DNA from: Spirochaetota bacterium
GTDB lineage: Bacteria; Spirochaetota; UBA4802; JAFGDQ01
DNA: 28,778 bases
Reading direction: 5' to 3'
NCBI GenBank assembly: GCA_043803405.1
Contig: JAZDKB010000012.1
Span: 1-28,778, forward strand
Below are positions 339-22,866 of the stretch, one piece after another. Within the stretch, counting starts at the first letter, position 1. Each line of letters begins with the position of its first letter. The notes beneath the pieces were generated by a model, which did no database searches, was not told the DNA's origin, and saw nothing but the letters and a program-made list of their open reading frames with translations. The position numbers and the translations under genes are program-made.

Positions 339-2354
339 ATGAAAAATAAAAAGTCAATTAATCCCGTCAATATGTCTGATAAACAAATTAGAAAAAAGCC
401 GGTATCTACATCTAAAAAAAGCACAGATAAAATAAAGGGCAAATTGCGGTATGATTCAGATAAAGCTAAAGGCAGGGGGAAAGCCAGTGCCGTTATAGTG
501 AAGCGTAAAAGCGCTAAAAAAGCCGTCAATGCTTCGGAAGATATGTTCAGGGAACTGGCTGAAAAGTCCCTTGCAGGTATTTATATAATACAGGACGGTT
601 TTTTTAAATACGCCAATCCCAGGTTTGCCGAGATATTCGGTTATACTGTTGATGAAATAGAAAACAAAATGCGTCCGGAGGATATGGTTTTGCCGGAAGA
701 CTGGCCTGTTGTCAGCGGGAATATCCGAAGGAGGCTGACCGGCAAGGCTGTTTCAATTCATTATGAGTTTATAGGGATTAAAAAAAACAGGGAACCTGTC
801 AGTATTGAAGTCTACGGATCAAGGGTAATGTATCATGGAGAGCCCGCTGTTATGGGGACATTGCTTGATACTACAAAAAGAAAACTGGCAGAGGAAAAAT
901 ACCGCAGTATATTTGAAAATTCAGTTGAGGGTATTTTTCAGTGCACCCCGAATGGACAGTTTATTGTAACAAACCCTGCCTTTGCGGAAATGCTGGGATA
1001 CGGCTCTGCGGAAGAAGTTATATCTGTGCTTACGGATATATTGCAATTATACGCTGATCCTTCGAGTTATTCGGATTTTATGAATATTTTAAGGAGAGAA
1101 GACCTTGCTGTCGGATTCGAATGTGAATTCTTTAAAAAAAGTAAGGAAAGAATATGGGTATCGATTAATGCCCGCGCTGTCCGCGAAATAGACGGTTCAA
1201 TTCAGTATTATGAGGGCAGCGTTGAAGATATCACTGAAGAAAAAAAGGCAAAAGATGAGCTTCGCCGGTTGAATGAATTTAACACTGCTATTATTGAAAA
1301 TGCTCCCGTAGCAATATTCGTTCTGGATAAAAACGGCGTTGTTAGAAGCGTTAATCCTGCTCTTGCTATAATATCCGATCTTGGGCTGCGAGTTGAAGAA
1401 AAATTAATAGGATTTAACTGGCTTAAAAATCCGTATACTATAAAATGCGGTCTGGCCCGACAAATTGAAAAGGGTTTGCAGGGTGAACCATTCCAGTTAT
1501 GGGACTTTCCTTTTATTACTTTCCGCGGCGACAGGAATCTTTATATGGATTTTAAAGGAGTTCCTCTAAAAGGAAAGGGTGGGAACATAGAAGGACTGCT
1601 TTGCATAATTGAAGAAACCACCGACCGCGTAAAAATAAGGGCAAAGCTGATGCAGGAAGCGCGGATGGCTGCAATAGGTAAACTGGCAGCAGGTATTGCC
1701 CATGAGCTGAACAATCCGCTTGCAACACTTGTAGCTCATTCTGAGCTTGCCGGTCACTGCCTGGAAGCCCTTCGGAAAAATAAAAAAGAGCAACCTGTGC
1801 TGGAAGAGCTTAAAGGTTATCTTAATATAATCGAGACACAGGCATTCCGCTGTAAAAATGTAACAAGCGATATATTGAGCCTGCCATGGAAAGAAGGACT
1901 TGAATTAAAAAGCGTGGATATTAATAAACTTATTGATAATGTTCTGGAATTTGGAAATATTGATCAGCCCGGCATTAAGATTGTAAAAGAACTCGGTTCG
2001 CCTCTTCCTTATGTCAGCGGAGATATCGGGGCATTGCGCCAGGTTTTCGTGAATCTGATAAACAATGCATCGGACGCAGTTGAAGGGAGAATGGACGCTA
2101 CAATATGGATAAGAACAAAAACAGAACACGGCCTTGTTCTGATAGAAATAGAAGATAACGGCAGCGGTATTCCGGACACGATCGCAGAAAAAATATTTGA
2201 GCCTTTCTTTACAACAAAGGAATCAAAAAGAGGGATAGGCCTGGGATTATCGCTTTGTCATGAATTTATAACTCATATGGGCGGAACTATTACTGCAGAA
2301 AGCCAGCCCGGAAGCGGGGCCAGGTTTGTTATTTCCCTTCCTGCGGAAAATTAA
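339..2354 (+). CDS. Cytoplasmic PAS-domain sensor histidine kinase (3 PAS, HisKA, HATPase_c; NtrB-like)
   Basis: 671-aa ORF with three PAS/PAC-like segments ([36 protein letters not shown]), H-box [11 protein letters not shown]-box [11 protein letters not shown]-boxes [20 protein letters not shown]. No TM segment. Lys-rich N-terminal ~65 aa; exact start uncertain. Confidence 0.93.
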
Positions 2355-2390
2355 TAGAAAAAATTTTATTCGAATGATTATATTATTATA

Positions 2391-2683
2391 CTATAGTATT
2401 TTAAAGTACATTCTGCTTGCCTCGACTCCGCTCGGCAAGCGGAAAAATCGCACCCAGAGCGAAGAGGCTGTGTGAGAAAATGAATACCTTTGCTGCTACG
2501 GCCCCCTAAATCCCCCTTGAGGGGGACTTTTAACTTTTTTTATTGAGAAAGGCTTGTGCTTTTTTGTTTTTAAGTCCCCCTCAAGGGGGATTTAGGGGGG
2601 CCGGGAGCATAAAAGCCTTACTTTTCACATAGTCTCGAAGTCGGAGGGTGCATGGAATGTAAATCATTTCGTTAACCGCTATA
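2391..2683. repeat. Outer REP-like palindromic element interrupted by a nested MITE
   Basis: Ends CTATAGTATTTT (2391-2402) and AACCGCTATA (2674-2683). Internal CTCGACTCCGCTC ... GAGCGAA|GTCGGAG pairing and GCACCC/GGGTGC arms are split by the 2464-2636 insert. Confidence 0.55.
2464..2636. mobile_element. Non-autonomous MITE (~173 bp) carrying a long internal inverted repeat
   Basis: Imperfect TIRs GAGGCTGTGTGAGAAA / TTTTCACATAGTCTC, flanked by a GAA duplication (2461-2463, 2637-2639). Internal ~30-bp inverted repeat GGCCCCCTAAATCCCCCTTGAGGGGGACTT (2500-2529) / 2572-2602. Confidence 0.75.
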
Positions 2684-2698
2684 AAATGGAGATTATAA

Positions 2699-4051
2699 AT
2701 GATCCGTGTTCTTATAATTGATGATGAGCTTCAGCTTACCGAGGCTTTTAAAACGCAGTTAAATAAAGAAGGTATGGATGTGTCTGCCTGCCCATCTGCT
2801 GCCGAAGCAATCGCAATTATGAAAAAGCAAAGATTCGATGTAGCAGTACTTGACATTAAGCTTCCTGATATAAACGGCGTTGAGTTTCTTTTAAAGCTGA
2901 AAAAAACAGAGCCCGACATGGAAGTTATCATGCTTACGGGTTTCGCTTCAGTGGACACTGCGATTCGGTCTATGAAGCTCGGCGCTTACGATTACCTTAC
3001 AAAGCCGTGCAAAATATCGGAGCTCCATAAAGTAATATTAAAAGCTTATGAAAAAAAGAGTTTGCAGGAAAAGAATATTGTCCTCAAAGAACACATCCAG
3101 AGAATCGGGCACCATGATGATTTCATCGGCGAAAGCAAAGAAATAAAAAAAATTAAAAAGCTCATATCACTTGTTGCTGATTCAAACATGCCAGTGCTTA
3201 TACTCGGAGAAACAGGCACAGGCAAAGAGCTTACGGCGCGCGCCATACATGAACAAAGCAAGCGGGCGGGAAACCCGTTTGTCGCTATTAACGCAGCTTC
3301 ACTTCAGGAGAGTATACTGGAAAGCGAACTCTTCGGATATAAGAAGGGAGCATTTACAGGCGCGCAGAATAACAAGCTTGGTCTTCTGGAAATAGCGAAC
3401 AACGGCACTCTTTTTGTAGATGAAGTAGGCGATATGGGGCTGGCAATTCAATCTAAAATGTTAAGAGTTGTTGAGACAGGCACTTTTATGAAACTGGGAG
3501 ATACGAAAGAAATAAAAGTAAACATACGATTTATTTTCGCTACGAACAAGGAGCTTGAAAGCGAGATAGAAAGCGGTAAATTCCGCAAAGATCTTTTTTT
3601 TAGAATGAATGCTTTTGTAATTAATCTTCCGCCGCTTAGAGAAAAGAAAAAAGATATCCCTTACCTTGCAAATTATTTTCTGGAAAAATTTTCCGGAGGA
3701 GGAAAAAGGAAAAGCTTTTCTTCGGATGCGCTTAAACTATTGACGTCCTATGACTGGCCCGGTAACGTAAGAGAGCTTGCTAATGTAATTGAGCGTTCAG
3801 TGCTGTTGAGTGCCAAAAGGGACGAAATACTCATAAGCGATTTCCCGGAAGGAATGCTGAAACCGTCACCTAAAGCTGAAGAAAGCAAAAGAGTTAAAAT
3901 AAAAAATGACATTATGAAACTTACCAATCTGGAACAGGATCATATAAAAAAAGTACTGGATTCCGTAGGCGGCAACAAGAGCAAAGCTGCAAGTCTTTTA
4001 GGCATAACAAGAAAGACGCTTTACAGCAAGATAGGCAAAAACATAAAGTGA
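2699..4051 (+). CDS. Sigma-54-dependent response regulator (NtrC/AtoC family: REC, AAA+, Fis HTH)
   Basis: Receiver with IIDDE and AVLDIKLPD, Walker A GETGTGKE, ESELFGY-x3-GAFTGA, FVDEV Walker B, WPGNVREL, C-terminal GGNKSKAASLLGITRKTLY HTH. Confidence 0.96.
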   Translation: MIRVLIIDDELQLTEAFKTQLNKEGMDVSACPSAAEAIAIMKKQRFDVAVLDIKLPDINGVEFLLKLKKTEPDMEVIMLTGFASVDTAIRSMKLGAYDYLTKPCKISELHKVILKAYEKKSLQEKNIVLKEHIQRIGHHDDFIGESKEIKKIKKLISLVADSNMPVLILGETGTGKELTARAIHEQSKRAGNPFVAINAASLQESILESELFGYKKGAFTGAQNNKLGLLEIANNGTLFVDEVGDMGLAIQSKMLRVVETGTFMKLGDTKEIKVNIRFIFATNKELESEIESGKFRKDLFFRMNAFVINLPPLREKKKDIPYLANYFLEKFSGGGKRKSFSSDALKLLTSYDWPGNVRELANVIERSVLLSAKRDEILISDFPEGMLKPSPKAEESKRVKIKNDIMKLTNLEQDHIKKVLDSVGGNKSKAASLLGITRKTLYSKIGKNIK

Positions 4052-7120: not shown

Positions 7121-7732
7121 ATGGAAATTCAGTTAAACGAACTAATCACAAAAATAAAAAAAGACGGCATTGATGAAGCTGAAAAGAAAGCTGCTGAAAT
7201 AATTGATAACGCAGAAAAAGAGGCTTCCGAGATAATTAAAAATGCAAAAAAAGAAGCTTCGGAAATAATATCGAATGCAAAAAAAGAACAGCAGCATTTT
7301 GAGAATACCGGCAGGGAAGCACTTAAACAGGCAGGCCGCGATCTGATTCTCTCAATAAGGGAGAAATTGATTTTAATGTTCGATTCTATAATTAAACAGG
7401 AAGTTTCCGGAGCGCTTACTGATGGAGTGACAGCGGAAATTCTTCCGGTGATTATCAAAAACTGGACGGATAATGGCAAGGATATTGAAGTATTCCTGTC
7501 TAAAGAGGACAGAGTAAAACTTGAAGAAAGTTTATTTAATAAATTAGCCGCTGAACTTAAAAATAATGTAACCGTAAAAGCTCATCCTGAAGTTAAAGCC
7601 GGTTTCAGAGTTACCGAAAAAGACGGCGATCTATATTATGATTTTACCGATTCTGCAATAGCTGAGAATCTTGTGAGGTATTTAAATCCTGTATTGACGG
7701 ATATTATAAAAAAAGCAGCATCGGGGAAATAA
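7121..7732 (+). CDS. ntpE: V/A-type ATP synthase subunit E
   Basis: MEIQLNELITKIKKDGIDEAE start, 11-residue coiled-coil repeats, GFRV..DG..YYDFTD C-terminal motif; first gene of the operon. Confidence 0.9.
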   Translation: MEIQLNELITKIKKDGIDEAEKKAAEIIDNAEKEASEIIKNAKKEASEIISNAKKEQQHFENTGREALKQAGRDLILSIREKLILMFDSIIKQEVSGALTDGVTAEILPVIIKNWTDNGKDIEVFLSKEDRVKLEESLFNKLAAELKNNVTVKAHPEVKAGFRVTEKDGDLYYDFTDSAIAENLVRYLNPVLTDIIKKAASGK

Positions 7733-7733
7733 A

Positions 7734-8270
7734 ATGTCCAAGTATTATTTTGCAGTAGCCTCGCTGCCACATCTGGAATATGATATGGAGAATATCTTTC
7801 CGATTGAACAATTTCTTGAAATATGCGAACGCAATCTTAAGCCTGAACATTTGAATCTGATTAAATCCGCACACCTGGATAATCCTGAACAGCCATTAAC
7901 AAGTAATAAGTTATTGAATGACTGGTTAATATGGGAAAGAAATTTAAGGAACAATCTTGTTCTACTTAGAGCGGAAGATAAAAATGAACTCCCCGAGAAA
8001 TACTTAAGAGAGAATCAGGAAACCCCGCTGAATTACAGATTCATAAGCGAAGCGTATGAAAGCGAATCTCCTTTAAATGCCGAGGAAATTTTATATCTGG
8101 AGAGATGGTCTTTCCTTGATAATATTGAAAGCGGCCATTATTTTGATGAAATAAACCTGATTGTTTATTATATCAAACTGCAGATACTATGGAGAAAACA
8201 TTCCTTAAATAAAGAAAGCGGAACGCGTAAGTTCGGTCAATTACTGGAATTACAAAATATAACAATTTAA
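7734..8270 (+). CDS. DUF2764 family protein (V-ATPase subunit C-like)
   Basis: YYFAVASLPHL N-terminus, RWSFLD..GHYFD..YYIKLQIL C-terminus; position between E and A is typical of this operon type. Confidence 0.85.
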   Translation: MSKYYFAVASLPHLEYDMENIFPIEQFLEICERNLKPEHLNLIKSAHLDNPEQPLTSNKLLNDWLIWERNLRNNLVLLRAEDKNELPEKYLRENQETPLNYRFISEAYESESPLNAEEILYLERWSFLDNIESGHYFDEINLIVYYIKLQILWRKHSLNKESGTRKFGQLLELQNITI

Positions 8271-8373
8271 TATATCAATATTTTATATTATTAGCAATAA
8301 ATAGTATTTTACTGCGGCGAACTATGCACAGGCAGATGCAATTTAGTCGTGAAACAGAGTGGAGAGAAACACA

Positions 8374-10140
8374 ATGACCGCATCAGGAAAAGTAGTAGGC
8401 GTAAACGGAAATCTTGTGACTGTAGAATTCAGCGGCGATGTTTTAATGAACGAAGTCGCTTATATTGCTTATCAGGATAAACGTTTAAAATCAGAAGTAA
8501 TACGCATCAAAGGTAAAAGAGCCGAGTTACAGGTCTTCGAAATAATTAAAGGAGTGGGTGTCGGCGATGATGTGGAATTTACAGGGAGTCTTCTTTCAGT
8601 TGTAGTCGGCCCGGGCCTGCTTGGTCAGATTTTTGACGGTCTACAGAATCCTCTTCCCCAGCTTGCAGAGAAATACGGCTTTTTTCTTGAAAGGGGAATA
8701 TACCTGGAATCCATATCAGATGAAAAAAAATGGGAATTTACTCCAAAAGTAAAAGCAGGCGACAGTGTTGTTCGCGGCCAGCAGTTGGGTACAGTCCCTG
8801 AAGGAATTTTCAAGCATAAGGTTATGGTTCCGTTTAATTTTTATGATATCTATAAAGTCAGGTCAATAGCTGCTGAAGGCAGTTATTCTGTAAAACAGAC
8901 TATAGCTGAACTTGAAGATGAAAATGGCAATGTCATTCCTGTTTCAATGATATTTCAATGGCCTGTAAAAAAGGCCATAAAAGCATATAAGGAAAGGATG
9001 AAGCCTTCCGAACCGATGGTAACCCAGATAAGGATAATAGATACTCTTTTCCCTGTTGCAGTAGGAGGGACATACTGCATACCCGGACCTTTTGGCGCCG
9101 GTAAAACCGTATTACAGCAACTGACCAGCCGTTATGCAGATGTTGATATTGTTATTCTGGCTGCGTGCGGAGAGCGCGCCGGCGAGGTTGTGGAAACATT
9201 AAAGGAATTCCCGCAAATGATCGATCCGAGAACCAGCAAGCCGCTTATGGAAAGGACAGTGATTATATGCAACACGAGTTCCATGCCCGTGGCAGCGCGC
9301 GAAGCATCGGTCTATACTGCTGTTACGATCGCGGAGTATTACAGGCAAATGGGTCTCAAGGTATTGCTGCTGGCGGATTCCACGTCAAGGTGGGCGCAGG
9401 CTATGAGGGAAATGTCCGGCCGTCTTGAGGAAATTCCGGGAGAAGAGGCGTTCCCCGCATATCTGGATTCTGTTATTGCCGCATTTTATGAAAGGGCAGG
9501 TGTTGTGAAAAACATCGATGAAAGCACAGGCTCTATTACAATCGGAGGAACAGTCAGCCCTGCGGGCGGAAATTTCGAAGAGCCGGTTACTCAGGCCACG
9601 TTAAAGGTCGTAGGAGCTTTTCATGGCCTGTCAAGAGAACGTTCGGATGCGAGAAGATATCCTGCCATTCATCCTCTGGAAAGCTGGAGTATATACAGCG
9701 GTATTGTAAGTGAAAGAAAAACCTCTTATGCGAAAAAGATACTGTTTGAAGGCGAAGAGATATCCCAAATGATGAAGGTTGTCGGGGAAGAAGGCACAAG
9801 CATAGAGGATTATATAATTTATCTTAAAAGCGAATTTTTTGATTCCGTTTATTTGCAGCAGAACGCATTTGATAAGGTTGACGCGTTTACTTCCAAAGAA
9901 AGACAAAACTATGTTTTCGACAGATTGCTTATGATCCTGCTGGCCGGTTTTAAACTGGCGCACAAAGATGAAGCCCGTTCGTACTTTAATCAGTTGAGGC
10001 AGAAATTCCTGGACTGGAACGGGAATCCCGTCGATTCCTATGAGTTTAAGAAAATAGAGTACGAAATAATGTCAATGCTGAAAAGCAAAAGTATGGAGTC
10101 TATAGAGAATATTACGGAAAAATTAAACAGCTTAATTTAA
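8374..10140 (+). CDS. ntpA: V/A-type ATP synthase subunit A (catalytic)
   Basis: P-loop GPFGAGKT, CGERAGEV, NTSSMPVAAREAS, ADSTSRWAQA, PGEEAFPAYL, VSPAGGNFEEPVTQ. GGAGA RBS favours ATG 8374. Confidence 0.97.
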   Translation: MTASGKVVGVNGNLVTVEFSGDVLMNEVAYIAYQDKRLKSEVIRIKGKRAELQVFEIIKGVGVGDDVEFTGSLLSVVVGPGLLGQIFDGLQNPLPQLAEKYGFFLERGIYLESISDEKKWEFTPKVKAGDSVVRGQQLGTVPEGIFKHKVMVPFNFYDIYKVRSIAAEGSYSVKQTIAELEDENGNVIPVSMIFQWPVKKAIKAYKERMKPSEPMVTQIRIIDTLFPVAVGGTYCIPGPFGAGKTVLQQLTSRYADVDIVILAACGERAGEVVETLKEFPQMIDPRTSKPLMERTVIICNTSSMPVAAREASVYTAVTIAEYYRQMGLKVLLLADSTSRWAQAMREMSGRLEEIPGEEAFPAYLDSVIAAFYERAGVVKNIDESTGSITIGGTVSPAGGNFEEPVTQATLKVVGAFHGLSRERSDARRYPAIHPLESWSIYSGIVSERKTSYAKKILFEGEEISQMMKVVGEEGTSIEDYIIYLKSEFFDSVYLQQNAFDKVDAFTSKERQNYVFDRLLMILLAGFKLAHKDEARSYFNQLRQKFLDWNGNPVDSYEFKKIEYEIMSMLKSKSMESIENITEKLNSLI

Positions 10141-10254
10141 CACCTTTGGCTTGCACCTGTGGATTTTGTTATATCTATGGCAAAGTAAACCAGAGTAATT
10201 GCAGCTGCTCTGATAAATTTGAAAGATGAGTAATTATATTTTCTGGAGTGAAAG

Positions 10255-11550
10255 ATGCGAAAGATATATAACAGGATTGAGGAAATTAAAGGTAATGTTA
10301 TATCAGTACGCGCGGAAGGCATAAAGTACGGAGAACTCGCGGAAATAACATCCGGACACGGGAAATCGCTCGCTGAAGTTATCCAGCTTTACGAAGATAA
10401 AGTTTCGCTGCAGGTTTTTGCAGGCGGCAGGGGCATTTCAACAGGCGATGAGGTACGCTTTCTTTCAAGGCCTATGATGGTCTCTTTTTCCGACAACTTA
10501 TTAGGACGAATCTTTGACGGCAGGGGAAATCCGAGGGATAATGGCCCTGTATTAACAGATAGTCTAATCGAAATCGGAGGGCCATCCGTCAACCCCGCAA
10601 AAAGAATAATCCCGCGGAATATGCTCCGTACCGGCATTCCGATGATTGATCTTTTTAACACTCTTGTCGAGTCACAGAAGCTCCCCATCTTTTCAATCTC
10701 GGGTGAACCCTATAACGAACTCCTTGCCAGAATAGCCACCCAGGCGGAAGTCGATCTGATTATACTGGGTGGGTGCGGTTTAAAATATGACGATTACCTC
10801 TTCTTTAAGGAAAGGTTGGAAAAAGACGGTTCTTTAAGCAGGTCTATATTTTTTATACATACCGCGTCCGATCCTGTAGTAGAGTGTCTTATGGTTCCGG
10901 ATTTATCCCTTGCGGTTGCGGAAAAGTTCGCGTTAAAAGGCAAAAAGGTTCTTGTTCTAATAACGGACATGACGAATTTTTCCGACGCTTTGAAGGAAAT
11001 CTCAATCACCATGGAGAGAGTCCCTTCTAACAGGGGATACCCGGGCGATCTTTACAGCCAGCTTGCTTCAAGATACGAAAAGGCCGTGGACTTTGAGGGA
11101 CAGGGCTCAATTACTATTTTGGCTGCCACTACAATGCCTGGCGATGACGTGACCCATCCTGTACCGGACAATACTGGCTATATTACCGAAGGCCAGTTCT
11201 ATTTAAGGAACGGAAGGATAGAGCCTTTCGGCTCCCTCTCAAGATTAAAACAATTAGTTAATGGGAAAACAAGAGACGATCACAGGCCGTTAATGGACGG
11301 AATGATAAAATTATACGCGTCTTTTAAAGAGACTCTTGAAAAGAAGGCCATGGGATTTCGTATGTCTGACTGGGACGGGAAGCTTTTAAAATACGGCGCT
11401 CTTTTTGAAAAGGAGCTTATGGATCTTTCGGTAAATATGCCGCTGGAAAAGGCACTGGATAAGGGATGGGAGATATTTGCGGATTGTTTTACTCCTGAAG
11501 AAACAGGCATGAGAACAGGGCTTACGGATCAATACTGGCCTAAACAATAA
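10255..11550 (+). CDS. ntpB: V/A-type ATP synthase subunit B
   Basis: [58 protein letters not shown]. Confidence 0.97.
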
Positions 11551-11563
11551 AGGAAAATAAAAT

Positions 11564-12157
11564 TTGGCTAAGATAAAGCTGACAAAAAATGAACTAAAGC
11601 ATCAGAAGGATGATCTGAAGCGTTTTAACAGGTATCTTCCAACCCTGCAGCTGAAAAAGCAACAGCTTCAATTTGAAATCCATTCAGTTGAAGCCAAATA
11701 CAGGGAGAGTTCTTCTGCTAAAGAATTCATTAAGGAAGAAATAATGAAATGGGTGGATGTGTTCGGTGAAGAAACAGGAGTTGAGACCTTAATTAAATTT
11801 AAAAAGATAAACACAGAAACAGGCAACATAGCAGGAATCGAGATACCGGTATTCAGGGACGCTGAATTTGAAGTAATTTCCTATGATCTTTTTTTAACGC
11901 CTCTCTGGGTAGACAGGGCTGTTAATAAATTAATAGATATTTACAGGATTATTGCTGAATTGAAAGTGCTTCAGAAACAATTAGAACTTTTAAGAGAGGA
12001 ACTGAGAATTACTTCTCAGCGTGTGAATCTTTTTGAAAAAGTTAAGATTCCCGAAGCAATGAATAATATTAGAATAATTCAAATATATATGGGAGACCAG
12101 CAGACTGCTGCTGTTGTGCGCGGTAAAATAGCTAAAACCAAAACGGCTGAAGTATAA
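11564..12157 (+). CDS. ntpD: V/A-type ATP synthase subunit D
   Basis: TTG start after AAGGA. TKNEL, YLPTLQLKK, NIAG, TSQRVNLFEKVKIP motifs. Confidence 0.95.
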   Translation: MAKIKLTKNELKHQKDDLKRFNRYLPTLQLKKQQLQFEIHSVEAKYRESSSAKEFIKEEIMKWVDVFGEETGVETLIKFKKINTETGNIAGIEIPVFRDAEFEVISYDLFLTPLWVDRAVNKLIDIYRIIAELKVLQKQLELLREELRITSQRVNLFEKVKIPEAMNNIRIIQIYMGDQQTAAVVRGKIAKTKTAEV

Positions 12158-12159
12158 CC

Positions 12160-13959
12160 ATGATCGTAAAGATGAAGAAGACAACAGTTGTTGTTCTGGA
12201 TTCTAAAGTTGAAGAATCCCTGAAGCAATTGAGAGATACTGGAGTTATGCATCTCAATATAACTCCGAGAGGGAATAAACAAATTGCGGAAATTCATAAA
12301 AAAAGATTCATTTTGGAAAATTCCCTTGCCGTACTGGCCGACCATGAAACAGACCATATCAGCCCAGGTTCAACTGATATTGGAAGCATCATGGAAACAG
12401 CTTATATGATTCATGAGCTTGGCTCCAGGCAGTTTACATGTAACGAAGAACTTTTAGTTGTAGAACGGGAGATCCACAGACTGTCGCCATGGGGCGATTT
12501 TAAATTTCATGATTTAAAAGTATTAAAAGGAAAGGGAATCGACATACGATTGTATGAGCTGACTCCCGAGCAGTTCAATAAAATCCCGAGAAACAAACTG
12601 TTTTTTATTATCCATAGAGAAAGGACGGTAATAAGAGTAGCTGTTATCTTTACAGGAGAAAATAATGAGGACATTCCTTTTGAGCAGGTATCGTTGCCGG
12701 AGCAGTCTCTGTCACAGCTTAATTCAGAACGCGAAAATACGATAAGAGAAATCAGGTCCATTCAACTGGAGCTGAAAAGACTAAGCACGCATAAGAGTGA
12801 GCTTAAATATGCTATGAAAGAAATTGACGCAGAACTGGAGTTTGAGCATGCGGTAGCAGCGATGAGTAAAGAAGGGGAAATAGCGTACCTGACCGGTTAT
12901 GTTCCGGAGAATAAAATCGCTGCCGTTAAGACTGCGGCATCAAAAAACAGCTGGGGTCTTGTTATAGACGATCCTTCCGGTGACGATCCGGTTCCGACTT
13001 TAATTGAAAATCCGAAATGGGTAAATGCTATTTCGCCAGTATTTAAGCTCCTTGGAACAATACCGGGATACAGGGAGTTTGATATCAGCTTATGGTTCAT
13101 GGTTTTCTTCAGCATATTCTGGGCAATGATTATTGGGGATGCCGGATATGGCATACTGTTTCTTATTATGTCAATTATTGGAAGGATAAAGTTTAAAAAT
13201 GCATCCTTTGAACCATTCCTTCTTCTGTATATAACAAGTATAACTACAATTATCTGGGGCGCAATTACAGGGACATGGTTCGGATCTGAAGCACTTTCCA
13301 GGCAAGGGGCTTTATCGTGGATGATTATCCCGTCTATTTCAAGCTTTGCAGGCCCGAATAGCGGTACGGAAAAAATATTAATGAATTTATGCTTTGCATT
13401 AGGCACGCTGCATTTAAGCATCGCGCATTTGCTGAATTTTTTCCGTATGTTGCCTTCATTAAAAGCTTACTCTGAGATTGGGAGGCTATCTTTAATATGG
13501 GCATTGTATTTTTTAACACGCAGGCTTGTATTGAATCATGAATTGCATCCTGTAACTATCTGGCTTTTATTTGGAGGATTAGGATTAATCATTATTTTTT
13601 CCGAGCAAAAGGGCAGGTTCTTTAAAGGGATACTGGACAGCTTTGCCGGCATGTTTGTCATCACACTTAACAGCATCAGCTTTTTTTCCGACATTATTTC
13701 CTATGTTAGATTATTTGCCGTGGGGCTGGCTTCGCTGGAAGTCGCAAAGAGTTTTAATACAATGGCTATGTCGCTCGGATCAGGTTTCTTTGCGGTTATA
13801 GGATCTGTTTTAATATTATTTTTAGGGCATTGTCTTAATATAACATTAAGCGCGATGTCGCTCATTGTTCATGGGGTAAGACTTAACATGCTGGAATTTT
13901 CCGGGCATCTGAACATGGGATGGTCAGGGACAGAATACAAGCCTTTTAAAAAAGAATAA
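12160..13959 (+). CDS. ntpI: V/A-type ATP synthase subunit I (a)
   Basis: Soluble N-half then multi-TM C-half. PGYREFD, MIIGDAGYG, SDIISYVRLFAVGL (essential Arg), VHGVRLNMLEF, YKPF. Confidence 0.95.
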   Translation: MIVKMKKTTVVVLDSKVEESLKQLRDTGVMHLNITPRGNKQIAEIHKKRFILENSLAVLADHETDHISPGSTDIGSIMETAYMIHELGSRQFTCNEELLVVEREIHRLSPWGDFKFHDLKVLKGKGIDIRLYELTPEQFNKIPRNKLFFIIHRERTVIRVAVIFTGENNEDIPFEQVSLPEQSLSQLNSERENTIREIRSIQLELKRLSTHKSELKYAMKEIDAELEFEHAVAAMSKEGEIAYLTGYVPENKIAAVKTAASKNSWGLVIDDPSGDDPVPTLIENPKWVNAISPVFKLLGTIPGYREFDISLWFMVFFSIFWAMIIGDAGYGILFLIMSIIGRIKFKNASFEPFLLLYITSITTIIWGAITGTWFGSEALSRQGALSWMIIPSISSFAGPNSGTEKILMNLCFALGTLHLSIAHLLNFFRMLPSLKAYSEIGRLSLIWALYFLTRRLVLNHELHPVTIWLLFGGLGLIIIFSEQKGRFFKGILDSFAGMFVITLNSISFFSDIISYVRLFAVGLASLEVAKSFNTMAMSLGSGFFAVIGSVLILFLGHCLNITLSAMSLIVHGVRLNMLEFSGHLNMGWSGTEYKPFKKE

Positions 13960-14008
13960 ATTAATTATTAACAGCGTACTTGAGCAGTTTACCTAATGAT
14001 TAGTACTG

Positions 14009-14091
14009 TGTCATTTCGAACGGATGTGAGAAATCACCTGATTAAGTGTAAAAATAGATTTCTCAGTCGCTATCGCTCCTTCGGAATGACA
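14009..14091. repeat. REP-like nested palindrome between ntpI and ntpK
   Basis: TGTCATTTCGAA (14009-14020) / TTCGGAATGACA (14080-14091) enclosing TGAGAAATC (14027-14035) / GATTTCTCA (14057-14065). Confidence 0.75.
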
Positions 14092-14204
14092 ATTTGATAT
14101 ATTTATTCAATCGAAAAATGCTATAGTTTGTTGTAAAGCGAAATTTCTGGGTATTTGCGTTGTGGATGTAAATATAGATACTTATATATTAAAAGGAGAA
14201 AAAC

Positions 14205-14633
14205 ATGAATTTTGATTTTTTTGGTTCTGCTGCCGCGCTTGCATTTGCAGCGTGCGGATCTGCTGCCGGATCGGGTATAGCCGGAATGGCCGCGATCGGA
14301 TCATGGAAAAAATGCTTTATTCAGAACAAGCCCGCGCCGTTCCTGCTTATTGTCTTTGTAGGGGCTCCTCTTTCGCAGACGATATACGGGATGATTCTTA
14401 TGAACGCAGTGCTGGCCGCGTCCGGCACCGATCCTGTTATTAAACTCTCTGCCGGAGTTTTCGGCGGAATAGCCATAGGAATGTCGGCGCTCTTTCAGGG
14501 AAAAGCTGGTGCGAGCGGCTGTGACGCGCTGGCTGAAACAGGGAAGGGTTTCGGTAATTTTATAATGGTTATCGGCGTAATTGAGACGGTTGCATTATTT
14601 GTTATGGTTCTTCTGCTGAGTATTCTGGGTTAA
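14205..14633 (+). CDS. ntpK: V/A-type ATP synthase subunit K (4-TM proteolipid, Na+-type signature)
   Basis: 142-aa hydrophobic protein with PLSQTIYG, ALFQGKAG and IETVALF; AAGGAG RBS. Confidence 0.95.
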   Translation: MNFDFFGSAAALAFAACGSAAGSGIAGMAAIGSWKKCFIQNKPAPFLLIVFVGAPLSQTIYGMILMNAVLAASGTDPVIKLSAGVFGGIAIGMSALFQGKAGASGCDALAETGKGFGNFIMVIGVIETVALFVMVLLLSILG

Positions 14634-19812: not shown

Positions 19813-19826
19813 TTGACTTAAGTCAA
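19813..19826. promoter_or_regulatory. Perfect 14-bp palindrome resembling a Crp/Fnr-family box
   Basis: TTGAC-TTAA-GTCAA, same geometry as the FNR/Dnr TTGAT-N4-ATCAA box, ~120 bp upstream of the oxidase-like operon. TTGACT could also be a -35 with TATTAT at 19837-19842. Confidence 0.65.
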
Positions 19827-19943
19827 TGTGCGCTGATATTATAAAGCATAAGTACTTCTTGCCATAGCTATAAATTTTGTATTTTTTGCAGAATTTTACG
19901 CATTCGATAAAATATCATACAACATTTTTTTAAGGAGGGATTT

Positions 19944-20492
19944 ATGGTTGACTCGATAATTGTCCTCTGGGGACAGACAATCGCGTACACGTTGTATGCT
20001 GTTGCTATCATGTCTGTTGTCGGGTGGTTCGGGTACAGGGTTACGAAAAAAGGGAATGGCAGGGAGTTCAAGCCGGCAATCTTTTATGCCTTCGTTGCTT
20101 TTCTTATCATTGTAGGCGTATCGCTGCACCTCATTACGCACGCGACAATACCATGGAAACCGGTCGACCTTAACCGGCAGTCGGTAATAACTGACAGGAC
20201 ATTCGGCATCAGTATTATAGATCATAAATTTATTTTACCGAAAGAAAGAATATATATAAAAAAAGGTGATGTTGTCAGGTTCAATGTTACATCCGATGAC
20301 CTGACTTACGGATTCGGATTATTCCGAAAGGATAACACAATGGTTTTTCAGATGCAGGTGCTGCCGGGGTATGTAAACGATATTGTGTGGCATTTCGACA
20401 AGCCGGGCATTTACTCAATACGGTCAACCGAGTATTCCGGCCCTAAAGGCATTGGAATGATGGAGAAGGATGCGGTTGAGGTTGCCGACTGA
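19944..20492 (+). CDS. Heme-copper oxidase subunit II-like protein lacking the CuA site
   Basis: Two N-terminal TM helices then a cupredoxin-like domain (IYIKKGDVVRFNVTSDDLTYGF, VLPG, FDKPGIY). The CuA motif reads RSTEYSGPKGIGM instead of CxExCGxxHxxM, and the protein has no Cys. Confidence 0.88.
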   Translation: MVDSIIVLWGQTIAYTLYAVAIMSVVGWFGYRVTKKGNGREFKPAIFYAFVAFLIIVGVSLHLITHATIPWKPVDLNRQSVITDRTFGISIIDHKFILPKERIYIKKGDVVRFNVTSDDLTYGFGLFRKDNTMVFQMQVLPGYVNDIVWHFDKPGIYSIRSTEYSGPKGIGMMEKDAVEVAD

Positions 20493-20540
20493 TTATGAAG
20501 TCCGGCAGATATTATTTTAATAAACATAAGGAATAATATT

Positions 20541-22163
20541 ATGAATTTTATACAAACTTTAATAAAAGGCGAGCAGGGATTATTTAAGCCCGGTTCCCTG
20601 ACCCCTATGCAGAAAATGACTCTTAGATTTGTAGTAGTGGGCCTTTTGTATTACGGACTTGCTCTTACCGAAGGTATGATAATGAGAGTATACCTTGTGA
20701 AGCCCTTTGATCTTATTCCGCCTCCGCAGTTTTATGCGATTCTGACAGCTCACCCGCTCATCGGGATTTTCGGATCAACCTATTCGATTGTATTCGGCGC
20801 GTTTTTATTTCTTGTGCCTTTTCTTATGAAAAAGCCGCTTTGGAGCATTAAGCTTGCGGGCTGGACGTGCGGGCTTGTGGCAACAGGAACTTTCGTTTTC
20901 TGGTTCTCGGGATTTATTACGCACTATGCGCCGCTGTACACTTTGTACTGGCCGCTTCCCGCGGACTTTACGCAGTTCAGCGTATGGGGCGGGACTTTCT
21001 TTATTGCCGGCATTGCTGTAGTGATGATCGGCACGATTTGCTTCGTTATCAATATCTTTAAAACAATAACATACACGCCCGCGGGTGCTTCAAAACAGCC
21101 CGCGGGCGCGCTTCTTTCTTCCGCGCTTGGCCTTAGCGGTCTCAGGAATCTTTTTTCGAAAAATAAAAAAGAGCATCTTGTTTCGTTGCCCGTGGCTGCA
21201 ATAGCCCGCGGCACTGTGGACACTCTGTTTAACTCTGCCGTGATTACTTTTACAGGAGTGCTTATACTCATTTACATGATAGCAGAGATACTCGGGTTCA
21301 GCTTAAAGCATTCCGCGATCGATGCTTTACTGTACAAGAACTGGTTCTGGTGGGGGCTGGATCTTATTGCGGACGGCCTTGTGCTCATCTATGTTGCAGG
21401 CACATGGTACCTGCTCGCAACGCTTATTACAGGCAAAAAGCTGTTTATGGAAAACATAGCTCGCGCAGCCCTTTTAGTGGAACTCGTGGTTTCATGGACA
21501 GTATGGTCCCATCACCTGATGTCCGACCAGGCGCAGCCGGGCATACTCAAGGTCGTGTCCGGTGAAATGGTCACGGCATTCGAACTTATTACGCAGGGGC
21601 TCGCGTTCTTTATAACGCTTGTAACGCTGTGGAGCGCGCGGCCGCTTAAGATGACGAACCCGCTTAAGTTTTTACTGGGCGGGCTTCTCGGATTTGCCAT
21701 GGCTGTTCCCGCAGGCATTATACAGGCCGATCTCGGCCTTAACCGCATTCTGCATAATACGCAGTGGATCGTGGGGCCGCATGTACATGTCGCGGTTCTT
21801 GTGGGACTTACAATGACCCTTTACTCGGCCATATATTATCTGCTGCCTTTACTGACAAACGGCGCAAAGCTTTACAGCGAAAAGCTGGCGAACATTCATT
21901 TCTGGGCGCATCTGTTGGGCGGTATAGGCATGGGCGCGTTCATGGGCATGGCAGGCCTGCGGGGAATGCTCCGGCGCAATATCTGTTTTGACGGGGAGTT
22001 TACCGGATTTATGGTGCTTGCCGCGCTTGCGGGATGCCTTCTTTTACTCGGATTCCTTGCGTTCTTTATTAATATTGTAATGACACTCGGGATTAACGGA
22101 GTTGTCGGTATTTTTATGCCGTCTAAGCTTAAGACCAGCGAACTTCTGCCCGGGAAGAAGTAA
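20541..22163 (+). CDS. Heme-copper oxidase superfamily subunit I with non-canonical active site (putative gNOR-like nitric oxide reductase)
   Basis: 540-aa multi-TM protein with H71 (helix II), YTLYWPL loop, VWSHH (H324/H325), HNTQWIVGPHVH (H414/H416) and GMLRR. Helix VI reads WWGLDLIAD, with D274 and D278 at the His and Tyr positions. Superfamily call is firm; the NOR function is inference. Confidence 0.88.
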   Translation: MNFIQTLIKGEQGLFKPGSLTPMQKMTLRFVVVGLLYYGLALTEGMIMRVYLVKPFDLIPPPQFYAILTAHPLIGIFGSTYSIVFGAFLFLVPFLMKKPLWSIKLAGWTCGLVATGTFVFWFSGFITHYAPLYTLYWPLPADFTQFSVWGGTFFIAGIAVVMIGTICFVINIFKTITYTPAGASKQPAGALLSSALGLSGLRNLFSKNKKEHLVSLPVAAIARGTVDTLFNSAVITFTGVLILIYMIAEILGFSLKHSAIDALLYKNWFWWGLDLIADGLVLIYVAGTWYLLATLITGKKLFMENIARAALLVELVVSWTVWSHHLMSDQAQPGILKVVSGEMVTAFELITQGLAFFITLVTLWSARPLKMTNPLKFLLGGLLGFAMAVPAGIIQADLGLNRILHNTQWIVGPHVHVAVLVGLTMTLYSAIYYLLPLLTNGAKLYSEKLANIHFWAHLLGGIGMGAFMGMAGLRGMLRRNICFDGEFTGFMVLAALAGCLLLLGFLAFFINIVMTLGINGVVGIFMPSKLKTSELLPGKK

Positions 22164-22227: not shown

Positions 22228-22255
22228 AAAACCGGCGGGATGTCCCGCCGGTTTG
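22228..22255. terminator. Bidirectional intrinsic terminator
   Basis: AAACCGGCGGGA-TG-TCCCGCCGGTTT between the convergent oxidase operon and the TA pair. Confidence 0.8.
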
Positions 22256-22336: not shown

Positions 22337-22567
22337 CTAACAGGCTTTTTTTACTAATTCTTCGATTTCGTGCCCGTATTCGGAAAAGTTCAATACGGTA
22401 AAACCGATAATTTCACCGCTCTTTGGATTGAATCGAATAAGCAAATCTTCACCCGTATCGAGCACTTCGCCTTCTGCCGGCTCCCCGAAAGAAACATAAA
22501 GAACATCTGCTTCTTCATCAAAAAAGCTTGAAACTGTTTTACCTGCTGGCAGCTTTACTTTTTCCAT
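22337..22567 (-). CDS. DUF2283 domain protein (putative antitoxin)
   Basis: FDEEADVLYVSF, LLIRFNPKSGEIIGFTVLNF pattern typical of DUF2283; small and acidic; overlaps the upstream gene by 13 bp. Confidence 0.85.
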   Translation of the reverse strand: MEKVKLPAGKTVSSFFDEEADVLYVSFGEPAEGEVLDTGEDLLIRFNPKSGEIIGFTVLNFSEYGHEIEELVKKAC

Positions 22568-22866
22568 ATTATTTTCCTTTTAAAAGAAGGTCTTCTTGTA
22601 AAATATACCGTTAATATAAAACCTTTATCTAAAGATATATTCTTATACACAACAATGCAATATTTATTTTCCGATACAGGTGTCTTGGCGAACTTTTTAA
22701 TCGATAATTTTTCGCCCCTGCTGCCTTCCTGAATATAATCCGGGTCAGTTATGGTATCATTAACAATTTTTTCCTGATGCATGGTCTCCGGATGTTTATT
22801 GTTTATATGCTTCCATCTTTCCGGCGATAAATTTATTTCTTTTCCCTGGTAATCTGTATAAAGCAT
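22555..22866 (-). CDS. PBECR/RelE-fold-like putative nuclease toxin
   Basis: 103-aa basic protein with INLSPERWKHI..KHPE, DPDYI, KYCIVV, GFILTVY; coupled to a DUF2283 gene. Confidence 0.7.
   Translation of the reverse strand: MLYTDYQGKEINLSPERWKHINNKHPETMHQEKIVNDTITDPDYIQEGSRGEKLSIKKFAKTPVSENKYCIVVYKNISLDKGFILTVYFTRRPSFKRKIIWKK

What the first reader, a model, noticed from the sequence alone, without database searches (positions are those of the whole stretch)
19944..22163. Heme-copper oxidase-family enzyme with a rebuilt binuclear centre (His to Asp, Tyr to Asp): candidate gNOR-like or new NO reductase
Seen: subunit I keeps five of the six canonical histidines (H71, H324/H325, H414/H416) and the Arg-Arg pair, but helix VI reads WWGLD(274)LIAD(278) where O2 reductases have WxxGHPxVY. 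D274 is 50 residues before the HH pair, the same spacing as H240 to H290 in the bovine enzyme. Established: that His ligates CuB (FeB in NORs), the cross-linked Tyr is needed for O2 reduction, and NO reductases replace the Tyr with other residues such as Glu. A His-to-Asp change is, from memory, the hallmark of the proposed and little-characterised gNOR family. Inference: a carboxylate-rich non-heme metal site (probably Fe) doing NO or other non-O2 chemistry, likely mis-annotated as cytochrome c oxidase. Both ORFs are intact, and no heme A/O synthase, Sco or nitrite reductase gene is in the window, which suggests a stand-alone detoxification or respiratory module.
Basis: partly seen in the sequence, partly recalled or inferred. 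Interest (0 to 1): 0.9.

Follow-up and report, generated by a model that had tools for sequence, protein, structure and literature searches.

The report
Known gNOR-type nitric oxide reductase genes

Summary
Subunit I (20541-22163, 540 aa) keeps H71, H324/H325, H414/H416 and R478/R479. It has D274 and D278 where oxidases have the CuB histidine and the cross-linked tyrosine. Subunit II (19944-20492) has no cysteine and lacks the CuA ligands.

Both aspartates were found in 120 of 120 close homologues and 119 of 120 more distant ones.

These are the published hallmarks of gNOR (norGH): Asp for His, Asp at the Tyr position, and a CuA-less cupredoxin subunit. One genome that Murali et al. 2024 score as A=1, C=1, GNOR=1 holds an A-type gene, a C-type gene and a homologue of this gene. 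This is therefore a new member of a known, biochemically untested family. This scan had already reported gNOR in at least 23 other genomes.

- The cassette was not found in 40 of 40 sampled relatives, which suggests horizontal gain.
- An HcpR-type box (TTGACTTAAGTCAA) lies upstream. The same box also fronts hcp in this genome.
- No NirS, NirK, NrfA or NosZ gene was found in the genome.

Together these point to NO detoxification, not denitrification. NO turnover itself remains untested.

The parts
19813..19826 (.). Perfect palindrome TTGACTTAAGTCAA, predicted binding site of an HcpR-type CRP/FNR regulator, 131 nt before the subunit II start codon
   Evidence: Read. It matches the consensus wyTTGACnnnnGTCAArw that Rodionov et al. 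2005 predicted for HcpR (PMC1274295, passages). In this genome the exact box occurs 4 times, 3 of them intergenic. One of those lies between a CRP/FNR regulator gene and hcp. The box is kept upstream of subunit II in the nearest relatives L005 and L027, and with one mismatch in L007.
19813..19842 (+). Sigma-70-like promoter match (TTGACT, 18 nt, TG-TATTAT) whose -35 hexamer lies inside the palindrome
   Evidence: Consensus scan, 10 of 12 positions. This is a pattern match only and no transcript start is known.
19944..20492 (+). Subunit II: membrane-anchored cupredoxin-like protein without CuA ligands (182 aa)
   Evidence: It has no cysteine at all. Alignment to Thermus ba3 subunit II CuA domains puts Tyr, Arg and Ser at the His and two Cys ligand positions. 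There are weak COX2/CoxB/NosZ-C-terminal matches. A homologue sits directly upstream of subunit I in 75 of 76 loci with enough upstream DNA. A Shine-Dalgarno-like AAGGAGG precedes the ATG.
20541..22163 (+). Subunit I: heme-copper-superfamily catalytic subunit (540 aa) with D274/D278 on helix VI and H324/H325, H71, H414/H416, R478/R479 retained
   Evidence: AlphaFold model: mean pLDDT 82.8, pTM 0.86, with D274/D278 inside helix 262-297. Foldseek: full-length match to bo3 and aa3 subunit I, TM 0.72-0.77.
22229..22254 (.). G+C-rich hairpin (11-bp stem) 66 nt after the subunit I stop, a possible terminator
   Evidence: The scan lists it on the minus strand, and its T-run is weak, so its function is not shown.

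Best explanation
The two genes at 19944-22163 encode a two-subunit heme-copper-superfamily enzyme with Asp274 and Asp278 in place of the metal-binding histidine and the cross-linked tyrosine and with a subunit II that lacks the copper-A ligands. This matches the published gNOR (norGH) family, and the enzyme is predicted to reduce nitric oxide to nitrous oxide, with electrons likely taken from menaquinol. Shown here: the residue pattern, its near-invariance across the family, the fold, strong purifying selection, and the fixed pairing of the two genes. Inferred: two b-type hemes are held by H71/H416 and H414. A non-heme metal, probably iron, is bound by H324, H325 and D274, with D278 (and perhaps the invariant E348) as further carboxylates. 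Without the His-Tyr cofactor the enzyme would do two-electron NO chemistry and not four-electron O2 reduction. In this genome the cassette was probably gained by horizontal transfer. It is predicted to be switched on by an HcpR-type regulator together with the hybrid cluster protein. It would therefore serve NO detoxification in a non-denitrifying anaerobe and not respiration.
For: Family features:
- D274/D278 align with the CuB His and the cross-link Tyr.
- The other five His and the Arg pair are kept and are invariant in a 36-sequence alignment reaching down to 40% identity, as is E348.
- Subunit II has no Cys, and Y, R and S sit at the CuA ligand positions.

Literature:
- Murali et al. 2024 (PMC11214002, passages) describe gNOR as the only HCO family with Asp for an active-site His. 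They describe a CuA-less cupredoxin subunit and a probable quinol donor.
- PMC8756737 (appendix table) lists D at the Tyr position for gNOR.
- PMC8906906 (passages) calls the genes norGH.

Elimination test: Dataset S6 of Murali et al. gives CG2-30-36-16 sp001873185 as A=1, C=1, GNOR=1. The genome holding record MNYQ01000027.1 'Ignavibacteria bacterium CG2_30_36_16' (L032) has four PF00115 matches. They are an A-type gene of 486 bits cut at its contig end, a 70-bit N-terminal piece that ends where its own contig ends and that I read as its other half, a C-type 708-aa frame, and an 80%-identical homologue of this gene.

Tree: all 42 D-x3-D rows form one clade with SH-aLRT 100.

Functionality: dN is 0.09-0.16 with saturated dS.

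NO link:
- The box TTGACTTAAGTCAA lies upstream.
- Of 4 exact boxes in the genome, 3 are intergenic. One lies between a CRP/FNR regulator gene and hcp (NF003658, 838 bits), which is followed by a ferredoxin gene.
- The same box lies upstream of gNOR in L005 and L027, and with one mismatch in L007.
- It also lies beside or within about 1.3 kb of the HcpR orthologues of those three genomes.
- In 41 of 74 loci a three-Cys Rrf2 regulator sits directly upstream instead.

No denitrification context:
- No NirS, NirK, NrfA or NosZ was found in this 94%-complete genome.
- Among 50 other gNOR-bearing genomes, full-length NirS was found in 2 and NirK in 5.

Horizontal gain:
- 0 of 40 relatives carry the gene.
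- glgP-lepA synteny with same-genus genomes ends exactly at the cassette.
- No flanking gene is shared with any of 80 other loci.

Heme type: no heme O synthase scored over the cut-off, which fits b-type hemes.
Against: - No gNOR has been purified or assayed, according to the papers I read, so NO reduction is inferred from sequence. It also rests on a myoglobin mimic cited by Murali et al. that I did not read.
- I could not place the protein in a tree with the six reference gNOR accessions. Two accession look-ups did not hit them and the published alignment is a picture. Membership therefore rests on shared features and one elimination test.
- The window's subclade is only 40-46% identical to the rest of the D-x3-D clade and sits on a long stem.
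- A preprint (10.1101/592808, passage) says gNOR has a His-to-Glu change at a heme ligand. That change is not present here.
- The HcpR box count in the genome (4) equals the chance expectation (4.6). The argument rests on where the boxes lie, not on how many there are.
- The box overlaps the best -35 match, so activation versus repression is open.
- The Rrf2 neighbours reach only the superfamily model, not the NsrR equivalog.
- Hcp was found in only 6 of 50 gNOR genomes.
- In the model the H324/H325 stretch is non-helical, and residues 326-329 fall below pLDDT 50. No coordinates were available to measure the site.
Confidence: 0.72

Rival explanations
1. It is a respiratory NO reductase that is part of a denitrification chain. 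This is how the literature frames gNOR: denitrification in sulfidic habitats.
For: Murali et al. 2024 propose this role (passages). Seven of the 50 other gNOR genomes searched do carry NirS (2) or NirK (5).
Against: This genome shows no NirS, NirK, NrfA or NosZ at 94% completeness. In 43 of 50 other carriers no NO-forming nitrite reductase was found. The neighbours are stress regulators, not nir or nos genes. The MAGs are incomplete, so absence is not proven.
Confidence: 0.1
2. It carries out another reaction at a heme/2-His-2-Asp centre and not NO reduction to N2O. Examples would be the turnover of another nitrogen or sulfur species.
For: No family member has been assayed. In 10-13 of 81 loci, all from Bacteroidales-type records, YeeE/YedE-like sulfur-transport halves and rhodanese genes lie downstream. 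Murali et al. report gNOR mostly from sulfidic habitats. The site has no precedent among solved HCOs: no chain named NO reductase appears among the 50 profile matches.
Against: The regulators next to it or predicted for it (HcpR box, Fe-S Rrf2, CRP/FNR) are the kinds known from nitrosative-stress regulons. The sulfur genes are confined to one lineage and may simply be neighbours.
Confidence: 0.12
3. It is a low-level oxygen-scavenging quinol oxidase.
For: It is the only PF00115 gene in the genome. The closest solved relatives by sequence profile and by fold are O2 reductases such as bo3.
Against: The cross-linked Tyr and one CuB His are replaced in all members examined. By established knowledge of the superfamily, restated in Murali et al., O2 reduction needs the His-Tyr cofactor. 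A cytochrome bd oxidase is present for O2.
Confidence: 0.04
4. It is a decaying or inactive oxidase remnant.
For: Catalytic residues of the parent family are lost.
Against: Both frames are intact. The substitutions are fixed across hundreds of genomes (at least 575 relatives) and dN is far below the saturated dS.
Confidence: 0.02

Closest known systems
gNOR (norGH) family of the heme-copper oxidoreductase superfamily. Described in Murali et al. 2024, PMC11214002. Earlier sources named there and in PMC8756737 are Hemp & Gennis 2008 and Sievert et al. 2008, which I did not read.
   Same: Asp for the helix-VI metal-ligand His, Asp at the Tyr position, a cupredoxin subunit II without CuA, a two-gene unit, and occurrence in anaerobes of many phyla and in archaea.
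   Different: It belongs to a tight subclade, 75-88% identical across phyla, that is only 40-46% identical to the other D-x3-D proteins. Here it lacks any denitrification partner and carries an HcpR-type box. I found no paper in the held library that links gNOR with HcpR or NsrR.
qNOR / cNOR (NorB-type NO reductases)
   Same: The proposed reaction and a carboxylate near a non-heme metal. For qNOR, the proposed quinol donor is also shared.
   Different: cNOR and qNOR keep three His plus a Glu at FeB and belong to the C-family branch. No chain named NO reductase appears among the 50 PDB sequences matched by the family profile at E up to 1e-5.
B-family (ba3) and bo3-type oxygen reductases
   Same: The overall subunit I fold (TM about 0.75). 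The subunit II cupredoxin is most like Thermus ba3 subunit II. The CuA-less, quinol-type architecture resembles bo3.
   Different: The His-Tyr cofactor and one CuB ligand are replaced. At the K-channel Lys position the alignment shows Ala; this is my own reading of that alignment.
HcpR regulon of anaerobes (Rodionov et al. 2005, PMC1274295)
   Same: The same TTGACnnnnGTCAA box lies in front of hcp-ferredoxin and, here, in front of the gNOR genes. That paper predicted such a box before norB in Synechocystis.
   Different: Binding and the signal are predicted only, and the regulator here is 218 aa with no equivalog match.

Membership tests
gNOR | Catalytic subunit is a heme-copper-superfamily subunit I | tested here: met
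   PF00115 at 179.5 bits over residues 26-499. Foldseek TM 0.72-0.77 to bo3 and aa3 subunit I.
gNOR | Aspartate in place of one active-site (CuB/FeB) histidine (Murali et al. 2024) | tested here: met
   D274 aligns with the His of GHPEVY. It is invariant in alignment A3.
gNOR | Aspartate at the cross-linked tyrosine position (table in PMC8756737) | tested here: met
   D278 aligns with the Tyr of GHPEVY. It is invariant.
gNOR | [quoted passage not shown] | tested here: met
   No Cys in 182 aa. Y, R and S sit at the H, C and C positions of ba3 subunit II. The fold of subunit II was not modelled.
gNOR | Recognised as gNOR by the curated family model of Murali et al. | tested here: met
   The test is indirect, by elimination in one genome. 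Dataset S6 lists CG2-30-36-16 sp001873185 with A=1, C=1, GNOR=1. That genome has four PF00115 matches: an A-type gene, a short piece at a contig end that I read as its other half, a C-type gene, and this family's homologue L088. The HMM itself was not available.
gNOR | Groups with the reference gNOR sequences (for example CBE68178.1, OFY63238.1) in a tree | not tested
   The reference sequences could not be obtained. My tree shows only that all 42 D-x3-D rows form one clade.
gNOR | Conserved quinol-binding residues | not tested
   The residues are not named in the texts I could read. The cited source paper was not read.
gNOR | NO reductase activity | not testable with these tools
   No biochemical data for any member appear in the papers read.
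cNOR / qNOR | FeB bound by three His plus a Glu; C-family-related subunit | tested here: not met
   One His is Asp. No chain named NO reductase is among the 50 PDB matches of the profile.
A/B/C oxygen reductases | Three CuB histidines and a cross-linked tyrosine | tested here: not met
   D274 and D278 replace the helix-VI His and Tyr. For the new NOR families, Murali et al. report no tyrosine migrated to another position. I did not test for a migrated Tyr on coordinates.
sNOR / bNOR | All three His kept, Asn at the Tyr position (Dataset S1) | tested here: not met
   The window protein has D, not H, and D, not N. Distant hits P0214 and P0226 show the H...N pattern instead.

The most novel reading that the evidence does not exclude
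The tight gNOR subclade to which this gene belongs is not a denitrification enzyme. It is a horizontally mobile, stress-regulated membrane module of non-denitrifying anaerobes. Its heme/2-His-2-Asp centre may handle a substrate other than, or in addition to, NO, for instance a sulfur-nitrogen species. This is hinted at by the sulfur-transport and rhodanese neighbours in one lineage and by the family's sulfidic habitats.
Probability: 0.12. Interest if true: 0.7.

Novelty: new member of a known kind. Interest (0 to 1): 0.22.

Why it matters
gNOR is one of several proposed NO reductase families that may add to N2O production, yet none has been purified. This case does not change what the family is.

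It does sharpen what the family may be for:
- It is the only heme-copper enzyme in a non-denitrifying anaerobe.
- It was not found in the 40 sampled relatives.
- It sits behind the same predicted HcpR box as the hybrid cluster protein gene.
- In 43 of 50 other carriers no NO-forming nitrite reductase was found.

If this holds, counting gNOR genes as denitrification potential in metagenomes would overstate denitrification. The annotation 'cbb3-type cytochrome c oxidase' also wrongly suggests oxygen respiration in strict anaerobes.

Tried and rejected
- **Direct link to the six reference gNOR accessions of Murali et al.:** two cluster look-ups returned other accessions. The published alignment (Dataset S2) is a picture without text, and Dataset S1 has no gNOR column.
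- **Sievert et al. 2008:** not held under the DOI or under a PMC id that I recalled.
- **Synteny:** no flanking gene of the window is shared with any of the 80 related loci.
- **Composition as evidence of transfer:** GC3 of the two genes (0.53-0.56) is only slightly above glgP and lepA (0.50), so this is not decisive.
- **Rrf2 gene next to the cassette:** none in this window. The only Rrf2 homologue in the genome is 35% identical and lies on another contig.
- **hcp as a neighbour of gNOR:** found in 1 of 81 loci only.
- **Expression:** no RNA holder was listed for the stretch.
- **Palindrome mining upstream of the Rrf2 genes:** exact arms gave nothing shared. Two patterns read off by eye afterwards are post hoc.
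- **Structure:** the model gave the fold, but no coordinates were available to me, so no metal-site distances could be measured.
Full report
**What is there.**
- The window carries two co-oriented ORFs 48 nt apart: 19944-20492 (182 aa) and 20541-22163 (540 aa). Each is preceded by a Shine-Dalgarno-like sequence.
- The larger ORF matches Pfam COX1 at 179.5 bits over residues 26-499. The smaller matches COX2 only weakly, at 15.3 bits, below the cut-off.
- NCBIfam equivalogs for CtaD, CcoN and SoxB are matched far below their cut-offs. The protein is therefore a divergent member of the superfamily.
- HMMER alignment to solved oxidases places D274 and D278 under the His and Tyr of GHPEVY. It places H414/H416 under HFH and the Arg pair under PRR.
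- Subunit II has no cysteine. Aligned to the Thermus ba3 CuA domain, it has Tyr, Arg and Ser at the His and the two Cys ligand positions.
- An AlphaFold model built on 36 family members has mean pLDDT 82.8 and pTM 0.86, with D274/D278 inside helix 262-297. The stretch after H324/H325 is non-helical and of low confidence in this metal-free model.
- Foldseek finds full-length matches to bo3 and aa3 subunit I at TM 0.72-0.77.

**Is it decay?** It is not.
- A word-indexed search gave 3148 proteins at E up to 1e-5 among the 8000 scored. The best 120 are 80-100% identical, and all 120 carry WWGLDLIAD.
- A representative search found only two close full-length 50%-identity clusters, at 73% and 46% identity. 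The next full-length hits, at 30% identity or less, keep the histidine or show other patterns.
- A search from the 46% relative, P0123, listed 120 proteins. They include archaeal, Anaerolineae, Dehalococcoidia and Actinomycetota records. Of these, 119 show WWGLDM[IV]AD or a close variant, and one (P0320) was not resolved.
- In a 36-sequence alignment reaching down to 40% identity, the invariant residues include H71, D274, D278, H324, H325, E348, H414, H416, R478 and R479.
- dN against eight relatives is 0.09-0.16 while dS is saturated. Two further pairs were not found by my string search.
They come from many phyla, and the best 80 are 75-86% identical.

**Which family.**
- Passages of Murali et al. 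2024 (PMC11214002) describe gNOR as the one HCO family that has replaced an active-site histidine with aspartate. They describe a cupredoxin second subunit without CuA residues and a probable quinol donor.
- An appendix table of PMC8756737 lists D at the tyrosine position and no proton channel for gNOR.
- PMC8906906 names the genes norGH.
- All the sequence features that could be tested are met here.
- I could not obtain the six reference sequences, so I used an elimination test. Dataset S6 of Murali et al. scores CG2-30-36-16 sp001873185 as A=1, C=1, GNOR=1. The genome behind record 'Ignavibacteria bacterium CG2_30_36_16' (L032) has four PF00115 matches:
  - an A-type gene cut at its contig end;
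  - a 70-bit N-terminal piece that ends where its own contig ends, which I read as the other half of that gene;
  - a C-type 708-aa frame;
  - a homologue of this protein.
- In my tree of 55 rows (quick IQ-TREE, LG+G4), the 42 D-x3-D rows form one clade with SH-aLRT 100. The rows were every eighth of P0002-P0120, every fifth of P0296-P0414 longer than 480 aa, ten distant hits, and three A- or C-type genes.
- That clade splits into a tight subclade holding the window and a more diverse one. Long branches make the deeper order unsafe.
- A family profile matched 50 PDB sequences at E up to 1e-5. They are bo3, aa3, ba3 and cbb3 chains, and none is named NO reductase. This fits the published view that gNOR descends from oxygen reductases.
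- One discordant note: a preprint (10.1101/592808) says gNOR has a His-to-Glu change at a heme ligand. That change is not seen here.

**Context and likely role.**
- This is the only PF00115 gene in the 3.98-Mb, 94%-complete genome.
- A cytochrome bd oxidase is present.
- NrfA, NosZ, NirS and NirK were not found, and no heme O synthase scored over its cut-off.
- In the rest of the window, a V-type ATPase operon, glgP and lepA lie upstream, and unrelated genes lie downstream.
- The gene was not found in any of 40 relatives: 2 of the same genus, 4 of the same family and 34 of the same order.
- glgP-lepA synteny with the same-genus genomes, at 75-79% nucleotide identity, shows that the contig belongs to this lineage. 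In those genomes another gene sits where the cassette is here.
- None of the window's flanking genes occurs in the 80 related loci.
- This pattern is best read as horizontal gain of a two-gene cassette.

**Regulation.**
- A perfect palindrome, TTGACTTAAGTCAA, lies 131 nt before the subunit II start. It equals the HcpR consensus TTGACnnnnGTCAA that Rodionov et al. 2005 predicted (PMC1274295, passages).
- The genome has four exact copies, against 4.6 expected from base composition, so the number alone means nothing. Three of the four are intergenic:
  - one lies between a divergent 218-aa CRP/FNR regulator gene and hcp (838 bits to the hydroxylamine reductase equivalog), which is followed by a ferredoxin gene;
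  - one lies before the gNOR genes;
  - one lies before a Zn-ribbon/HD-domain gene.
- The nearest gNOR relatives are three records titled Spirochaetota or Spirochaetes. They keep the box upstream of subunit II, exact in two and with one mismatch in one.
- Each of those genomes has one orthologue of the regulator, 45-54% identical. A box lies in its divergent intergenic region in L104, about 200 nt beyond it in L105, and about 1.3 kb from it in L106.
- Of the nine intergenic boxes aligned, seven are followed by TG.
- The box overlaps the best -35 match, so I cannot say whether the regulator activates or represses.
- Among 74 loci (the window included) with at least 1300 nt upstream, 41 have instead a three-Cys Rrf2 regulator gene directly upstream on the same strand. 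It reaches only the Rrf2 superfamily model, not the NsrR equivalog.
- Eight loci have a CRP/FNR gene nearby.
- I searched 50 other gNOR-bearing genomes, chosen by hand from the 80 and mostly those with long flanks.
  - Full-length NirS was found in 2. Fourteen further genomes reach the Pfam cut-off only with partial matches of about 24-39 bits, which I do not count.
  - NirK was found in 5.
  - Hcp was found in 6.
  - These genomes are MAGs, so absence is not proven.
- The stretch is not on record in any listed RNA run, so expression is untested.

**Mechanism.**
- Shown: the ligand pattern, the fold, the subunit pairing and the purifying selection.
- Inferred from established knowledge of the superfamily:
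  - H71 and H416 hold a low-spin heme and H414 holds the high-spin heme.
  - H324, H325 and D274 bind a non-heme metal, probably iron as in NORs.
  - D278 lies one helical turn on and supplies a second carboxylate.
  - The invariant E348 on the next helix may supply another carboxylate.
- Without the His-Tyr cofactor the enzyme should not reduce O2 to water, but it can do the two-electron coupling of two NO to N2O.
- With neither CuA nor a heme c domain, the donor is likely menaquinol.

**Novelty.**
- The family is published, and this scan had already filed it in at least 23 other genomes. I read those notes only after reaching the same reading myself (onward).
- An FNR/Dnr-type box and the Rrf2 link had also been noted there.
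- In the held library no paper contains gNOR together with NsrR or HcpR.
- The small addition here is that in this lineage gNOR shares the predicted HcpR box with hcp and stands without nitrite reductases.
- The verdict is a correct observation, a supported reading, a new member of a known kind, and low interest.

Noticed in passing
G000:C10:115480-117974 (locus L092:1981-4475): A divergent pair: a 218-aa CRP/FNR regulator gene and hcp (hydroxylamine reductase equivalog, 838 bits), with TTGACTTATGTCAA between them and a 4Fe-4S ferredoxin gene after hcp. This is the layout described for HcpR regulons.
   Followed up: yes
G000:C18:55068-55787 (locus L093:2569-3288, minus strand): The third intergenic HcpR-type box (TTGACATAAGTCAA) precedes a 239-aa protein with a Cys-rich N-terminus and an HD domain. 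A similar small Cys-rich ORF follows the box beside the HcpR orthologue in L104.
   Followed up: partly
L092:5392-5949 and five related loci (for example L083:7884-8483): A DUF5698-DUF2179 membrane protein gene lies next to hcp-ferredoxin in this genome and downstream of gNOR in 5 of 81 loci. It may be a shared member of NO-stress gene sets.
   Followed up: no
Related loci, for example L067:10205-10714, L073:5246-5848, L072:2129-3169: In 10-13 Bacteroidales-type loci, two YeeE/YedE-like sulfur-transport half-genes and several rhodanese-domain genes lie 2-6 kb downstream of gNOR. DUF1858-DUF2249 (8 loci) and PAS_10 (9 loci) genes also recur.
   Followed up: partly
Upstream of the Rrf2 genes in related loci (for example L045-L051, L056, L067, L070): Two patterns sit at fixed distances from the Rrf2 start: TGTGA-N6-TAACA at -81/-82 in 13 of 41 loci, and ATGCTA-N8-TATCAT at -23 in 11 of 41. 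Both were read off the same data and come from related genomes, so they are leads only.
   Followed up: partly
Protein P0227 (462 aa, Logan assembly only) and P0214 (472 aa): Two distant HCO homologues share the WWGL-type helix VI. P0227 has Arg at the His position and Gln at the Tyr position (ALRFYLQ). P0214 has His and Asn (WWGLHSYVN), which is sNOR-like.
   Followed up: no
window 7121-14633: A V/A-type ATPase operon (subunits A, B, D, I and the c proteolipid, plus a DUF2764 gene) lies upstream of glgP.
   Followed up: no
window 22555-22866 (minus strand): A 103-aa ORF with low G+C (0.32) lies just after the cassette. It has a sub-threshold match to PBECR3, a Barnase/EndoU/RelE-like nuclease domain (26.6 bits, cut-off 30). 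It may mark mobile DNA at the synteny break.
   Followed up: no
window 339-4051: A multi-PAS histidine kinase gene is followed by a sigma-54-dependent response regulator gene. No link to the cassette was seen.
   Followed up: no
preprint 10.1101/592808 (passage): The preprint states that gNOR has a His-to-Glu substitution at a heme ligand. In the 36-sequence alignment H71, H414 and H416 are all invariant, so the statement does not fit this clade.
   Followed up: partly
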